DNA of 64,000 nt from an archaeon (GCA_024277205.1 JAJRVP010000021.1:25130-89129); one strand, 5' to 3'. Positions 3,245 to 15,151 are shown, counted from the first letter of the stretch. Notes: generated by a model from the letters alone, not told the origin. Numbers and translations are program-made.

Positions 3245-3426
<182 letters not shown>

Positions 3427-3957: not shown

Positions 3958-4213
3958 CGCCGGGGGTGGGAATTTCCTTCGGCAAAACACGGCTTTTGCC
4001 GAATTTCGAATTCGTGGCACCCCCAGAGTTCTCTTTTCCGGGCGCGCTTTTCTCTTTCAAGAGAAAATGGTGCTCCCACGCATCCCGAAGGAAACTGGCT
4101 ATCAACGCACCTTTTTGGTCGAGCTTTTTTTCAAAAAGGTCGTAGCAGGCCAGCGCCATAACCAGATTTCCCACACTTTTCTTTGGAAGAAAAGTTTTCT
4201 AGGCGACCCCGGC
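3958..4213 (-). tRNA. tRNA-Ser(GCU) with multiple insertions: D-loop about 4169-4198, canonical 37/38 at 4101-4142, and about 97 nt inside the T-arm (3971-4074)
   Basis: Minus-strand read: GCCGGGG TC GCCT AG[~30]AATCTGGTTAT GGCG CTGGC CTGCTA[42]A GCCAG, then a long variable arm TTTCCTTCGGGATGC, GTGGG[104 incl. T-loop]CCCAC CCCCGGC G. Acceptor, anticodon and T stems pair. Length after removing the insertions is about 87 nt, which fits a class II tRNA. The T-loop splice boundaries could not be resolved by eye. Confidence 0.65.
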
Positions 4214-4260
4214 AAAACTTTTTATTTTCTTTAACAAAACTTTCTTTTTAAGAAAGTTTT
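4214..4260 (-). repeat. Intron-like hairpin module filling the spacer between the SRP RNA 3' end and the tRNA-Ser 5' end
   Basis: Minus strand: AAAACTTTCTT AAA AAGAAAGTTTT GTT AAAGAAAATAAAAAG. This is the same pyrimidine arm / loop / purine arm / spacer / second purine arm layout as the tRNA introns. Confidence 0.6.
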
Positions 4261-5792: not shown

Positions 5793-6055
5793 AGGCGAGA
5801 AATAGTTTAGTATGAAACAAACATACTATTCTTGATTTTATCTGAAATTCAAAGTGATAATAATGATCATCCTCGCCAATTGGCAATTAATTATTAATTT
5901 GGTAAGGTGTGAACATGATGGCCCGTAACTAACCGACTATCACAAATCAAGTCAGCACCTTCACGGGCCAAATATATCAAGCAGGAGTATTCTGTGCTCA
6001 CAGATGAAACTCAAATAGTTTCTCGCACAGAGAACCGGCCCACTTGATTACGCCT
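5793..6055 (+). ncRNA. rnpB: Structured ncRNA, candidate (reduced) RNase P RNA
   Basis: No credible ORF in a 500-nt gap, with locally raised GC. Three motifs resemble RNase P conserved regions and occur in the correct order and spacing. GGGCCAAATA (5965-5974) compares with E. coli AGGCCAAAUAGGGG. AGATGAA (6002-6008) compares with AGAUGAAUG. ACAGAGAACCGGCCCA (6027-6042) compares with ACAGAACCCGGCUUA. Terminal pairing AGGCG (5793-5797)/CGCCT (6051-6055). Hairpins TAGTATG/CATACTA (5808-5828) and GGCCCGT/ACGGGCC (5920-5969). I could not find a clean CR-I/P4 5' strand. Confidence 0.4.
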
Positions 6056-6203
6056 TGCCAAATATATTTTATAGTGTATGCTTTATAAACTTTTTCATAA
6101 CTACTCAAAAGGGATTACAGTAATATCTATAAATTCTGCTGTTCTGGATATAATCCATGATAAATGTTTTTATTATCCATGGCGCAGTTAAACTACAAAA
6201 TTT

Positions 6204-6276
6204 CCTCTTTTGCTTGAAAAGATAAAAGATTTTCTCTCTTAGTACAGGTTCTCTCTTTTCTAAAGAGAAAAAGTGC
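6204..6276 (-). repeat. Hairpin module (B-type) abutting the stop codon of CDS 6277-6774, plus a second small hairpin
   Basis: Minus strand after the stop: TAA GCAC TTTTTCTCTTT AGA AAAGAGAGAA CCTGTACT AAGAGAGAAAATC TTTTATC, then CTTTTCAAGCAAAAG. About 85% identical to the copy at 62631-62673. Confidence 0.6.
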
Positions 6277-6774
6277 TTACATGAAGCGCTGCATATGGAA
6301 GAATGCTTTCATCTCATTTTCAACAGTATGCATGTCAGTAGCTACTTTCTCTTTCCATGTATTAAATGTTGAACGATAGAAATAAACATCATATACTCCT
6401 TTTAGAAATTTGAGCAACGGATTTGTTTCCCATCTATTTTCATAGTCTGTCTGAATGTAACATTTCATCTCTAATTCTACTTCACCACTATTTTTTGTGG
6501 TTTGAACTCCTTCAACAACAACCTGCACTTTTTGAAGTCCTACTATCAATGTTTTTGCAAAAATTCTAAACAAGGAGTAATCATCAACTTTTTTATAACA
6601 ATTCCATTCAATTTCCACTTCGTCGCCTTCTGGTTTTGTTTTATGTTTATATTTTTGCTCTTCTACATCGTACCCAAGGCTTCTAAATATATCATAAAGG
6701 AGCCTATAGTAATCTCCAAAATCAAAAATCCCTTTATACTTCATACGTGATTTTGTTATGGTTATTTCTTCCAT
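6277..6774 (-). CDS. Hypothetical protein
   Basis: Long ORF. ATG at 6774 is preceded by GGGTGA and overlaps the stop of the upstream CBS gene (GGGTGAAAATG). No recognisable motif. Confidence 0.55.
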   Translation of the reverse strand: MEEITITKSRMKYKGIFDFGDYYRLLYDIFRSLGYDVEEQKYKHKTKPEGDEVEIEWNCYKKVDDYSLFRIFAKTLIVGLQKVQVVVEGVQTTKNSGEVELEMKCYIQTDYENRWETNPLLKFLKGVYDVYFYRSTFNTWKEKVATDMHTVENEMKAFFHMQRFM

Positions 6775-6776
6775 TT

Positions 6777-7232
6777 TCACCCTCTCGGATAATATGTTAA
6801 TTTTAAAGATGGTTCTCGAATTTTAAGTTTTTCAATTAACACATCAATAATACCAGGTTCGACCTTTAATAAATCTTTTTCGCTTAAATAGCCAACAACC
6901 TTTCCATTATCTACAACTGGAAATTTTCTAATTCCTTTTTTATTCATTATCTGTGCAACCTTTGACAAATCATCATTAGGATTAACAGTAATTGGTTTTC
7001 TTGTCATTATCTCTTTTACTTTTGTCTTAGTTGGACTTTTGTTTTTGATAAATGCTCTTTTTAATATATCTCCCTCTGTTACTATGCCCACTAAAACTCC
7101 TTTGTCAAGCACCAAAATAGAGCCTATTTTACGCTTAGCCATCAATCTTGCTGCTTTACCAATGCTTGTATCTGGACTAACAAAAATGGGTTTTCTTGTC
7201 ATTATCTCTCTAACTCTAATTCTGTATTTCAT
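6777..7232 (-). CDS. CBS domain pair protein
   Basis: 151 aa with two CBS repeats: IMTRKPIFVSPDTSIGKAARLMAKRKIGSILVLD..VGIVTEGDIL and IMTRKPITVNPNDDLSKVAQIMNKKGIRKFPVVDNGKVVGYLSEKDLL. Confidence 0.85.
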   Translation of the reverse strand: MKYRIRVREIMTRKPIFVSPDTSIGKAARLMAKRKIGSILVLDKGVLVGIVTEGDILKRAFIKNKSPTKTKVKEIMTRKPITVNPNDDLSKVAQIMNKKGIRKFPVVDNGKVVGYLSEKDLLKVEPGIIDVLIEKLKIREPSLKLTYYPRG

Positions 7233-15034: not shown

Positions 15035-15151
15035 GGCCCGGTAGCTTAGCCTGGTTGGAGCGCAATCTTTTTGCAAGCAAAAAGCTTGACCAAAAAGATG
15101 TTCAGACGGCTGATAACCGTGAGGTCGAGAGTTCAAATCTCTCCCGGGCCA
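15035..15151 (+). tRNA. tRNA-Ile(GAU) with a 42-nt non-canonical intron in the anticodon stem (about 27/28; 15064-15105)
   Basis: GGCCCGG TA GCTT AGCCTGGTTG GAGC G C[AATCTTTTTGCAAGCAAAAAGCTTGACCAAAAAGATGTTCAG]ACGG CTGATAA CCGTG AGGTC GAGAG TTCAAAT CTCTC CCGGGCC A. All four stems pair after excision, and the spliced length is 75 nt. Confidence 0.85.

What the first reader, a model, noticed from the sequence alone, without database searches (positions are those of the whole stretch)
3958..4213. tRNA-Ser(GCU) spread over 256 nt, with an unresolved ~97-nt insertion in the T-arm
Three separate insertions are needed to assemble the cloverleaf, in the D-loop, at 37/38 and in the T-arm.

The T-arm stems GTGGG (4079-4075) and CCCAC (3970-3966) are 104 nt apart. 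The intervening sequence holds a module hairpin, a 7-bp pairing of GGGGGTG with the 3' exon CACCCCC, and a perfect 10-bp hairpin TTCGGCAAAA/TTTTGCCGAA. It also contains an isolated TTCGAAA, a T-loop-consensus heptamer, flanked by CGAA/TTCG.

A canonical T-loop cannot be made from the nucleotides directly next to the stems. So either the T-loop is atypical, or a TTCGAA micro-exon is used, which would mean a fourth intron.
Basis: partly seen in the sequence, partly recalled or inferred. Interest (0 to 1): 0.65.

Follow-up and report, generated by a model that had tools for sequence, protein, structure and literature searches.

The report
Four-intron tRNA-Ser with 6-nt exon
A serine tRNA gene of a tiny DPANN archaeon appears to be cut into five pieces by four protein-spliced introns, one more than the published maximum of three, and one piece is only six bases long (the core of the T-loop); this shows how standard gene finders can miss essential tRNAs in these genomes.

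Summary

Window 4213-3958 (minus strand) lies just downstream of the SRP RNA in a Nanoarchaeota/Woesearchaeota-type genome. It encodes tRNA-Ser(GCU) as five exons (16, 25, 26, 6 and 14 nt) separated by introns in the D-loop (30 nt), at 37/38 (42 nt), at 53/54 (64 nt) and at 59/60 (33 nt).

Six related lineages have GTGGG-TTCRAA-[one intron]-T-CCCAC. Splicing the window through the micro-exon gives the same T-arm.

Intron 3 has a textbook bulge-helix-bulge (BHB) motif exactly at the boundaries homology requires (about 1 in 10,000 shuffles). A second lineage (L044/L035, DnaG 82-86% identical depending on the method) has the same four-intron layout. Its exons are 86/87 identical to the window's, its introns only 58-79%, and the intron-4 hairpin carries a compensatory change.

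ARAGORN calls the spliced product tRNA-Ser(GCU) for three of four D-loop splice registers, and finds no tRNA when TTCGAA is left out.

The flanking helix of the intron-4 BHB (the T-stem) forms only after intron 3 is removed, so splicing is probably ordered.

Not shown: no RNA data exist, and the D-loop intron boundaries are uncertain by about 3 nt. Published maxima are three introns per tRNA.

The parts
3958..4213 (-). Whole tRNA-Ser(GCU) gene: 256 nt, five exons and four introns. The predicted mature RNA is 87 nt before CCA addition.
   Evidence: Sequence read. Exon/intron parse against 7 orthologous lineages. ARAGORN calls the in-silico spliced product tRNA-Ser(gct) for 3 of 4 D-loop registers.
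4198..4213 (-). Exon 1 (16 nt, GCCGGGGTCGCCTAGA): acceptor 5' strand, positions 8-9, D-stem 5' strand and the start of the D-loop. The 3' boundary is uncertain by 1 nt.
   Evidence: 15 of 16 nt are invariant across all 8 lineages; the last nt is A in six and C in L033 and L049. H strand CCTA of the intron-1 BHB.
4168..4197 (-). Intron 1 (D-loop, 30 nt in the strict BHB register). It is a short hairpin, ACTTTTCTT/AAGAAAAGT, and a deletion derivative of the 43-81 nt D-loop intron of the relatives.
   Evidence: H helix CCTA/TGGG is 4/4 in 6 of the 7 lineages scored. The 3' boundary is uncertain by about 3 nt: an intron-free relative has D-loop TAGTGGTTAT, and ARAGORN prefers the shorter registers.
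4143..4167 (-). Exon 2 (25 nt, ATCTGGTTATGGCGCTGGCCTGCTA): rest of the D-loop, D-stem 3' strand, anticodon stem 5' strand, and the anticodon loop through position 37 (anticodon GCT).
   Evidence: 24/25 identical to L044. The anticodon stem covaries in L040 (CAAGC/GCTTG) and L049 (CCAGC/GCTGG).
4101..4142 (-). Intron 2 (canonical 37/38 position, 42 nt). It shares the module AAAAAGCTYGACCAAAAAGRTG with the 27/28 intron of tRNA-Ile at 15035-15151.
   Evidence: BHB: outer helix is the anticodon stem (6 bp), H is CTGC/GTTG at 3/4 with a U33-U mismatch, bulges TA|C and AT|A. The intron is absent in L002 and L049, where E2 and E3 are contiguous. Module seen.
4075..4100 (-). Exon 3 (26 nt, AGCCAGTTTCCTTCGGGATGCGTGGG): position 38, anticodon stem 3' strand, long variable arm (class II tRNA), and T-stem 5' strand GTGGG.
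   Evidence: 26/26 identical to L044. The variable-arm stem covaries (TCC/GGA versus CCC/GGG) and the T-stem covaries (GTGAG/CTCAC, ATGGG/CCCAT) across lineages.
4011..4074 (-). Intron 3 (53/54, between T-stem and T-loop, 64 nt). BHB elements: H CGTG (4080-4077) pairs with CACG (4016-4013); 5' bulge GG|A; 3' bulge AA|T; inner helix GCACC (4073-4069) pairs with GGTGC (4021-4017). It contains a dispensable Y/R module hairpin.
   Evidence: H 4/4 and inner helix 5 bp at the homology-defined sites; 21 of 200,000 shuffles reach this. The ends AGCACC...GGGGTGCCACGAA are identical in L044 while the middle differs by indels. 72% identical to the 59/60 intron of L001. The H helix appears in the local MFE folds of both lineages.
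4005..4010 (-). Exon 4, the micro-exon TTCGAA, which is T-loop positions 54-59.
   Evidence: Identical in the window, L044/L035, L001, L033, L045 and L049 (TTCAAA in L002 and L040), but only in the window and L044/L035 is it separated from the T-stem. Leaving it out abolishes tRNA detection.
3972..4004 (-). Intron 4 (59/60, 33 nt). The inner helix is the perfect 10-bp hairpin TTCGGCAAAA (4003-3994) with TTTTGCCGAA (3987-3978). H is TTCG (exon 4) with GGAA (3977-3974), 3 bp plus a G-G mismatch. Bulges are AA|A and AT|T.
   Evidence: the outer helix is 0 bp in the primary transcript and 5 bp (the T-stem) after intron 3 is removed. A compensatory G:C to A:T change occurs in the hairpin of L044. 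Only 38% identical to the 59/60 intron of L001, so it is not the ancestral intron.
3958..3971 (-). Exon 5 (14 nt, TCCCACCCCCGGCG): T60, T-stem 3' strand, acceptor 3' strand and discriminator G73. No CCA is encoded. It is followed by a T-tract (CTTTTGG, 3957-3951).
   Evidence: 14/14 identical to L044. Sequence.

Best explanation
This is a functional tRNA-Ser(GCU) gene of a DPANN (Nanoarchaeota/Woesearchaeota-type) archaeon, interrupted by four protein-spliced (BHB-type) introns: in the D-loop, at 37/38, at 53/54 and at 59/60. The last two lie only six bases apart, so T-loop nucleotides 54-59 (TTCGAA) form a 6-nt internal exon.

Inferred mechanism:
1. The 256-nt locus is transcribed as one precursor.
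2. The archaeal splicing endonuclease EndA cuts in the two 3-nt bulges of each BHB, and the RtcB-type ligase joins the exons.
3. Intron 3 is probably removed before intron 4. Its BHB is complete in the primary transcript, apart from a weak outer helix. The intron-4 BHB gains its outer helix (T-stem GTGGG/CCCAC stacked on H) only once GTGGG has been joined to TTCGAA.
4. This order also prevents release of a free hexamer, because at every step the exon pieces stay held together by the acceptor and T stems.

Evolution (inferred): intron 3 is the old 59/60 'module' intron of the clade. In the common ancestor of the window and the L044 lineage, a local rearrangement placed the TTCGAA on its 3' side together with a new hairpin intron.

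Shown here: sequence anatomy, homology, BHB geometry, and conservation and covariation. Inferred: transcription, the enzymes involved, the order of splicing and the exact D-loop junction.
For: - Synteny and orthology: the order DnaG, SRP RNA, tRNA-Ser is kept in relatives.
- Six other lineages (L001, L002, L033, L045, L040/41, L049) read T-stem-TTCRAA-[intron]-T-T-stem, which fixes the expected T-loop as TTCRAAT.
- The window spliced through the micro-exon gives an 87-nt product that differs from L001's only in the variable arm.
- Intron-3 BHB: H 4/4 and inner helix 5 bp at exactly the required sites; 21 of 200,000 shuffles reach this.
- The same layout occurs in L044/L035. Exons are 86/87 identical, introns 58-79% with large indels, the BHB-forming intron ends are invariant, and one pair in the intron-4 hairpin is compensatory.
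- The window and L044 fall in one DnaG subclade, apart from the 3-intron lineages.
- Covariation in the anticodon, T and variable stems across lineages.
- ARAGORN calls the spliced product tRNA-Ser(gct) for 3 of 4 D-loop registers in the window and all 4 in L044, and finds nothing without the micro-exon or with a single large intron.
- The intron-4 outer helix goes from 0 to 5 bp after intron-3 removal. Local folds agree.
- Neighbouring tRNA-Val (two introns) and tRNA-Ile (one non-canonical intron) show that this genome routinely uses such introns and shares intron modules between genes.
- Literature: DPANN EndA variants with the L3 loop are associated with increased tRNA gene disruption and with unidentified disrupted tRNAs (PMC5829648). 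Close introns that require sequential removal are known (PMC8450103).
Against: - No RNA evidence of any kind. No RNA run holds either lineage, and the metatranscriptomes examined cover only the SRP RNA core of other organisms.
- The intron-4 BHB is relaxed (H 3/4 with a conserved G-G mismatch), and the intron-3 BHB lacks a real outer helix.
- The full-length MFE fold of the window does not show the intron-3 BHB; local folds and L044 do.
- The strict BHB register for intron 1 gives an unusually long D-loop, which ARAGORN misparses in the window. An intron-free relative has a D-loop 4 nt shorter.
- EndA and RtcB were not located for this genome.
- Only 64 kb is visible, so a second, simpler tRNA-Ser(GCU) copy elsewhere cannot be excluded.
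- Run X2 contains an allele with an intron-free T-arm at the L035 locus.
Confidence: 0.8

Rival explanations
1. The locus is a decaying or non-functional copy (pseudogene). The T-arm was wrecked by insertions, and the cell uses another tRNA-Ser(GCU) gene elsewhere.
For: No RNA evidence exists. Only 64 kb of the genome is visible. A decayed intron plus 3'-exon relic does exist next to the L044 gene, so partial copies occur in this clade. An allele with an intron-free T-arm exists in run X2.
Against: All five exons, including the 6-nt one, are 86/87 identical between two lineages whose DnaG proteins differ by 14-18% depending on the method, while the introns have diverged to 58-79% with indels. 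The BHB-forming intron ends are invariant, and a hairpin pair is compensated. The true relic in L044 shows what decay looks like: its 3' exon has become TCCCAGCCGAGCG. The locus sits at the conserved syntenic position.
Confidence: 0.08
2. The T-arm insert is removed as one large intron of about 103 nt (or through other junctions). This would leave an atypical T-loop made from the nucleotides next to the stems, with the TTCGAA as an incidental part of the intron.
For: TTCRAA arises somewhere in a shuffled insert 4.9% of the time. The full-length MFE fold pairs GGGGGTG with the 3' exon rather than forming the intron-3 BHB.
Against: The resulting loop (GGAAATT) lacks T54, Psi55 and C56, and ARAGORN finds no tRNA. 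No BHB links GTGGG| to |T-CCCAC directly. All relatives have TTCRAAT. TTCGAA and its BHB flanks are conserved in L044 while the rest of the insert diverges.
Confidence: 0.03
3. The gene is expressed in pieces, as a split or trans-spliced tRNA. The 3' part (TTCGAA-intron 4-exon 5, or exon 5 alone) would be transcribed from its own promoter and joined in trans, as in Nanoarchaeum equitans.
For: The organism belongs to the broader Nanoarchaeota/DPANN group, where split tRNAs are known (PMC5829648, PMC3218864). The intron 'modules' resemble sequences found in intergenic spacers upstream of genes.
Against: All pieces are colinear and contiguous within 256 nt. Introns 3 and 4 contain no A/T box like the TTTAAATAAATA or TTTATAAA elements upstream of tRNA-Val, tRNA-Ile and the unknown RNA. 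The BHBs form in cis.
Confidence: 0.05

Closest known systems
Multiple-intron tRNA genes of Thermoproteales (Pyrobaculum, Thermofilum, Caldivirga), with BHB introns at canonical and non-canonical positions
   Same: Short protein-spliced introns with strict or relaxed BHB motifs in the D-loop, at 37/38 and in the T-loop. Related intron sequences are shared between different tRNA genes, implying intron transposition. Some closely spaced introns must be removed sequentially (PMC4033280, PMC8450103).
   Different: The published maximum is three introns per gene (PMC4033280, PMC8450103); this gene has four. The two T-arm introns leave a 6-nt exon, and I found no report of so short an internal tRNA exon. 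The host is a DPANN archaeon, not a crenarchaeon. The introns belong to a different sequence family (polypyrimidine/polypurine 'module' hairpins).
Highly disrupted nuclear tRNA genes of the red alga Cyanidioschyzon merolae
   Same: Up to three BHB introns per gene, in the D-arm, at 37/38 and in the T-loop. An experimentally shown order of intron removal is governed by BHB stability (PMC3728597).
   Different: That system is eukaryotic and reaches at most three introns, with no micro-exon reported. The present case has no experimental support.
Non-canonical tRNA introns and broad-specificity EndA in DPANN archaea (ARMAN-2 epsilon2 type; L3-loop alpha4 types)
   Same: Same superphylum. Relaxed BHB motifs at unusual positions are expected substrates. 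The literature explicitly predicts unidentified disrupted tRNA genes in DPANN genomes (PMC3239211, PMC5829648).
   Different: Those studies did not describe genes with more than three introns or a T-loop micro-exon. The EndA type of this lineage was not determined here.
Split and tri-split tRNAs (Nanoarchaeum equitans, Caldivirga maquilingensis)
   Same: The tRNA body is assembled from several short pieces through BHB-like junctions, and the breakpoints coincide with known intron positions (PMC3218864, PMC2237900).
   Different: In those cases the pieces are separate genes joined in trans. Here all five pieces are colinear in one 256-nt locus and are presumably one transcript.

Membership tests
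Archaeal protein-spliced (BHB/EndA) tRNA introns | A bulge-helix-bulge motif (4-bp helix flanked by two 3-nt bulges on opposite strands, or a relaxed HBh'/hBH form) at each exon-intron junction pair | tested here: met
   I3 has H 4/4, both 3-nt bulges and a 5-bp inner helix (outer helix weak). I1 has H 4/4. I2 has H 3/4 and a 6-bp outer helix. I4 has H 3/4, a 10-bp inner helix and a 5-bp outer helix after I3 removal. The I3 motif arises in 21 of 200,000 shuffles.
Archaeal protein-spliced (BHB/EndA) tRNA introns | Removing the introns yields a canonical cloverleaf with the conserved tRNA nucleotides | tested here: met
   ARAGORN calls the spliced product tRNA-Ser(gct) in 3 of 4 D-loop registers for the window and all 4 for L044, and calls nothing without the micro-exon. 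The T-arm GTGGG-TTCGAAT-CCCAC is identical to that of L001. Stems covary across lineages.
Archaeal protein-spliced (BHB/EndA) tRNA introns | The introns are actually excised in vivo by EndA and the exons are joined by RtcB | not testable with these tools
   No RNA run holds the window or the L035 locus. EndA and RtcB were not located; only 64 kb is visible.
Multiple-intron tRNA genes as described so far (three introns or fewer) | At most three introns per gene | tested here: not met
   Four introns are required. The literature states a maximum of three (PMC4033280, PMC8450103). No report of four was found.
Split (trans-spliced) tRNA genes | The halves are encoded at separate loci, each with its own promoter, and are joined through complementary leader/trailer sequences | tested here: not met
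   All exons are colinear within 256 nt. No A/T promoter box like those upstream of tRNA-Val, tRNA-Ile or the unknown RNA is present in I3 or I4.
Circularly permuted tRNA genes | The 3' half is encoded upstream of the 5' half | tested here: not met
   The exon order along the strand is 5' acceptor, D, anticodon, variable arm, T, 3' acceptor.
Class II tRNA-Ser | Long variable arm, a GCU/GCT anticodon read in a 7-nt loop with U33, and discriminator G73 | tested here: met
   The variable region is TTTCCTTCGGGATGC (15 nt, a stem with a TTCG loop), the anticodon loop is CTGCTAA, and G73 is present. ARAGORN assigns Ser(gct).

The most novel reading that the evidence does not exclude
The splicing machinery of this lineage can handle a 6-nt exon, and the precursor encodes its own splicing order. 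The T-stem that completes the intron-4 BHB exists only after intron 3 is removed. In addition, the conserved 10-nt complementarity between the 3' end of intron 4 (CCGAAGGAAA) and the variable arm (TTTCCTTCGG) may act as a built-in clamp or timer that holds the fragments in place. If so, tRNA micro-exons and more than three introns would be a general, so far invisible feature of Woesearchaeota-type genomes. That would account for part of their 'missing' tRNAs. It would also show a concrete route (local duplication or rearrangement, with a relic intron and 3' exon still visible in L044) by which an exon segment can move across an intron.
Probability: 0.2. Interest if true: 0.8.

Novelty: new variant of a known kind. 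Interest (0 to 1): 0.62.

Why it matters
**It exceeds the published limit.** Reviews and the tRNAscan-SE 2.0 paper give three as the maximum number of introns in one tRNA gene (PMC4033280, PMC8450103). This locus needs four and contains a 6-nt exon. The layout is conserved under purifying selection in two lineages.

**It explains missing tRNAs.** ARAGORN and Rfam miss this gene, and they also miss the two-intron tRNA-Val next to it. This is a concrete example of why DPANN/Nanobdellota genomes appear to lack tRNAs (PMC5829648; bioRxiv 10.64898/2026.05.13.725050). Iterative BHB-aware annotation is needed before inferring tRNA loss or host dependence.

**It offers a test substrate.** A 6-nt exon between two BHBs is a natural substrate for asking how EndA and RtcB handle minimal exons, and whether RNA structure enforces the order of splicing.

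**It bears on intron evolution.** The clade gives a graded series of 2, 3 and 4 introns, with homologous introns shared between Ser, Val and Ile genes, a relic intron plus exon, and an intron-free allele in one population. This is useful material for studying how tRNA introns are gained, moved and lost.

Tried and rejected
- ARAGORN and Rfam (at gathering and E-value thresholds) on the window find nothing at the locus. The weak Rfam hits (wcaG, miRNA families) are chance matches to the Y/R hairpins.
- An exhaustive BHB scan of the locus with loose criteria was uninformative, giving hundreds of hits. With strict criteria, 4 of 20,812 site pairs pass, about what chance predicts. The evidence therefore rests on the coincidence with the homology-defined sites, not on the mere presence of a BHB.
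- The metagenome scan with the central exon gave only one true ortholog (L035). The other four hits were chance matches in bacterial ORFs.
- The small downstream ORF is too poorly conserved to retrieve many loci, giving only 2 hits.
- RNA evidence: four run searches and two read-laying runs showed no coverage of the tRNA in any RNA run. L044 could not be sent to the run index.
- The full-length MFE fold of the window does not display the BHBs. MFE prediction on a 256-nt multi-domain precursor was judged unreliable, so local folds were used instead.
- A single large T-arm intron and the 'no micro-exon' model were rejected.
- My crude acceptor/T-stem scan for further disrupted tRNAs was very noisy. 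Only tRNA-Val at 3426-3247 was convincing.
- I did not look for EndA in the window.

Full report
**Context.** The window is AT-rich (about 32% G+C) and archaeal. Rfam finds an archaeal SRP RNA at 4530-4261 (minus strand) and one tRNA at 15035-15151. The flanking genes are SMC, a small ORF, archaeal DnaG and aCPSF1. A DnaG-based scan of one genome per species puts the organism among DPANN archaea labelled Nanoarchaeota, Woesearchaeota or Nanobdellati. The closest MAGs are AUK188 (L001) and AUK136 (L002) at 83% and 79% by the tblastn best segment. The finding lies 48 nt downstream of the SRP RNA on the same strand.

**Checking the observation.**
- acceptor GCCGGGG/CCCCGGC, with G73 at 3958;
- GTGGG (4079-4075) and CCCAC (3970-3966), separated by 104 nt;
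- a polypyrimidine/polypurine hairpin;
- GGGGGTG, complementary to CACCCCC;
- the perfect 10-bp hairpin TTCGGCAAAA/TTTTGCCGAA;
- TTCGAA at 4010-4005.

ARAGORN finds no tRNA in the whole window. Rfam finds nothing at this locus even at E <= 10.

**Orthologous loci.** I collected orthologous tRNA-Ser(GCU) loci by three routes: the DnaG scan (L001, L002, L033), a metagenome scan with the central exon (L035), and contigs encoding close DnaG homologs or the downstream ORF (L040/41, L044, L045, L049). That makes eight lineages counting the window.
- Six lineages have the T-arm as T-stem-TTCRAA-[one intron]-T-T-stem. This is a T-loop TTCRAAT with a single intron at 59/60, for example L001 GTGGG TTCGAA [66 nt] T CCCAC.
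- All eight have a D-loop intron at the same place.
- The 37/38 intron is present in six and absent in L002 and L049.
- The mature sequences covary. The anticodon stem is CTGGC/GCCAG, CAAGC/GCTTG or CCAGC/GCTGG. The T-stem is GTGGG/CCCAC, GTGAG/CTCAC or ATGGG/CCCAT. The variable-arm stem is TCC/GGA or CCC/GGG.

This is therefore a real, selected class II tRNA-Ser gene family.

**The T-arm of the window.** The window reads GTGGG [64 nt] TTCGAA [33 nt] T CCCAC. Splicing through the TTCGAA gives an 87-nt product whose T-arm (GTGGG-TTCGAAT-CCCAC) is identical to that of L001. The whole product differs from L001 only in the covarying variable arm.

I scored BHB geometry using the canonical rule: on each strand the 4-nt H segment is followed by a 3-nt bulge, which is cut after its second nucleotide. 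I checked the rule on the Rfam-detected tRNA-Ile of the same window (worked by hand from that sequence).

At the two sites homology demands, intron 3 has:
- H = CGTG/CACG (4/4);
- bulges GG|A and AA|T;
- an inner helix GCACC/GGTGC.

Only 21 of 200,000 shuffles of the intron reach this at those sites. Over the whole locus, 4 of 20,812 site pairs do, which is about the chance rate. The weight of the evidence therefore lies in the coincidence with the homology-defined junctions.

Intron 4 has:
- H = TTCG/GGAA (3 bp plus a G-G mismatch);
- bulges AA|A and AT|T;
- the 10-bp hairpin as its inner helix.

Its outer helix is absent in the primary transcript and becomes the 5-bp T-stem once intron 3 is gone. 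In local MFE folds, the CGTG/CACG helix appears for both the window and L044. L044 shows the full H, bulge and inner helix. The intron-3-spliced T-arm folds as T-stem plus hairpin. The full-length MFE fold of the window does not show the intron-3 BHB; I give that little weight.

**Independent conservation.** L035 (a JGI metagenome) and L044 (an ENA assembly from another sample) carry an identical locus with the same four-intron layout: GTGGG [40 nt] TTCGAA [34 nt] T CCCAC. The L044 DnaG is 82% identical to the window's by BLASTP and 86% in the MAFFT alignment.
- Between the window and L044 the exons are 16/16, 24/25, 26/26, 6/6 and 14/14 identical.
- Introns 1-4 are 60%, 65%, 58% and 79% identical, with large indels.
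- The intron-3 ends AGCACC...GGGGTGCCACGAA, which form the BHB, are invariant. The Y/R module hairpin in the middle is simply absent in L044.
- The intron-4 hairpin carries a compensatory G:C to A:T change.

In a DnaG neighbour-joining tree, the two four-intron lineages fall in one subclade, apart from the three-intron lineages L001, L033 and L045. This fits a single origin followed by purifying selection on all five exons and on the splice motifs. It argues strongly against a pseudogene.

**In-silico splicing controls.**
- With the micro-exon included, ARAGORN calls tRNA-Ser(gct) for three of four D-loop registers in the window and for all four in L044.
- With the micro-exon omitted, it finds no tRNA.
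- With the whole insert removed so that the last nucleotides of intron 4 serve as the T-loop, it also finds no tRNA.

**Origin of the layout (inference).** Intron 3 is 72% identical to the 59/60 intron of L001 and 68% to that of L040. Intron 4 is only 38-43% identical to any of them. The old 59/60 'module' intron therefore now sits 5' of the TTCGAA, and a new hairpin intron occupies 59/60.

Two observations point to a local rearrangement or duplication rather than a clean transposition:
- The E4/I4 junction is a 7-nt tandem repeat (AATTCGA|AATTCGG).
- In L044, 19 nt downstream of the gene, there is a decayed copy of a long 59/60 intron plus 3' exon. It is 73% identical to I4+E5 of L045, and its exon has degraded to TCCCAGCCGAGCG.

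I could not reconstruct the steps.

**Mechanism (inferred from established knowledge of archaeal tRNA splicing).** The locus is probably one transcript. EndA cuts each BHB, and RtcB ligates the resulting 2',3'-cyclic phosphate and 5'-OH ends. Removing intron 3 first is favoured for two reasons. It creates the complete hBHBh' motif for intron 4. It also avoids releasing a free hexamer, because at each step the fragments remain held together by the acceptor and T stems.

Sequential removal of closely spaced introns is documented for archaeal tRNAs (PMC8450103) and has been shown experimentally in C. merolae (PMC3728597). Relaxed motifs such as those of introns 1, 2 and 4 need a broad-specificity EndA. 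DPANN lineages carry EndA variants with the L3 loop that are associated with increased tRNA disruption (PMC5829648). I did not locate EndA for this genome.

**What is not established.**
1. There is no RNA evidence. No RNA run holds either lineage. The metatranscriptomes laid on the window cover only the conserved SRP RNA core, from other organisms.
2. The intron-1 junction is uncertain.
   - The invariant H helix CCTA/TGGG predicts TAGA|ATCTGG, a long D-loop.
   - A more distant relative, seen only as a contig in DNA run X1, lacks the D-loop and 37/38 introns and reads GCCTAGTGGTTATGGC, which is 4 nt shorter.
   - The first two 3' bulge positions vary between lineages, while the [A/G]TCTGG that follows is conserved. 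This favours the BHB register.
   - ARAGORN prefers the shorter registers.
3. A second tRNA-Ser(GCU) gene elsewhere in the genome cannot be excluded.
4. In run X2, a contig at higher depth joins an intron-free T-arm (...CTGGGTTCAAA) to the same 3' exon and flank as L035. Alleles with and without T-arm introns may therefore coexist.

**Comparison with what is known.** The introns work like the BHB introns of Thermoproteales and other archaea, and they meet the testable defining features (see the membership table). The differences are:
- four introns, against a stated maximum of three (PMC4033280, PMC8450103);
- a 6-nt exon;
- a DPANN host;
- a distinct family of intron sequences that is shared between Ser, Val and Ile genes.

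Literature searches found no report of a four-intron tRNA or a T-loop micro-exon. A 2026 preprint on complete Nanobdellota genomes reports order-level 'missing' tRNAs under tRNAscan-SE. The library searched is incomplete, so the priority claim is provisional.

**Verdict.** It is a new variant of a known kind, and its interest is moderate to high for tRNA biology and DPANN genome annotation.

Noticed in passing
window 3247-3426 (-): A second hidden tRNA: tRNA-Val(GAC) with two introns (D-loop, about 56 nt; 37/38, about 51 nt) and a canonical T-arm CCCGG-TTCGAAT-CCGGG. ARAGORN and Rfam both miss it. Its D-loop intron is nearly identical to the D-loop intron of tRNA-Ser in L001 and L002, so the same intron sits in different tRNA genes. 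In L002 the Val gene is intron-free.
   Followed up: partly
window ~5875-6062 (-), promoter box ~6078-6090: A conserved structured RNA of about 190 nt, of unknown family, lies between the 167-aa ORF (6277-6780) and DnaG. It has its own AAAG-TTTATAAA box and is 67-82% identical at the DNA level in ten or more relatives. RNAalifold gives 51 pairs, 11 of them with compensatory changes. There is no Rfam match even at E <= 0.05.
   Followed up: partly
window 15035-15151 (+): tRNA-Ile(GAU) has one non-canonical intron at 27/28, with a BHB of H GAGC/GTTC. The intron shares the module AAAAAGCTYGACCAAAAAGRTG with the 37/38 intron of tRNA-Ser, which suggests intron mobility between genes and positions.
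   Followed up: partly
window 4214-4260 and 6215-6290 (-); also L001, L042, L043 downstream of the SRP RNA: The polypyrimidine/polypurine 'module' hairpins (CTTTCTT..AAGAAAG, often followed by CNTGNAC and a second purine tract) occur in intergenic spacers as well as in tRNA introns. They may be a small mobile or regulatory element.
   Followed up: no
L044 2260-2377 (= L035 ~296-410): A relic of a long 59/60 intron plus a decayed tRNA 3' exon (TCCCAGCCGAGCG) lies 19 nt downstream of the four-intron tRNA-Ser. It is 73% identical to I4+E5 of L045 and is evidence of a local duplication or rearrangement.
   Followed up: partly
window 3973-3982 versus 4085-4094 (-): The 3' end of intron 4 (CCGAAGGAAA) is a perfect 10-nt complement of the variable arm (TTTCCTTCGG). 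The pairing is kept in L044 with one G:U and dominates the full-length MFE folds. Its function is unknown; it could be a chance by-product.
   Followed up: no
L035 263-350, run X2; L035 100-182, run X1: Population variants were seen only as short contigs. In X2, a contig at higher depth joins an intron-free T-arm to the same 3' exon and flank. In X1, a relative has no D-loop or 37/38 intron, has D-loop TAGTGGTTAT, and keeps a 59/60 intron. X1 also holds two short contigs covering window 3967-4022 (E5-I4-E4-end of I3) with 5-6 differences.
   Followed up: partly
L002 1589-1674: ARAGORN 'finds' an intron-free tRNA-Ser(gct) here by borrowing intron sequence as a false acceptor stem. The true gene spans 1534-1725 with two introns. 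This shows how such loci get mis-annotated.
   Followed up: yes
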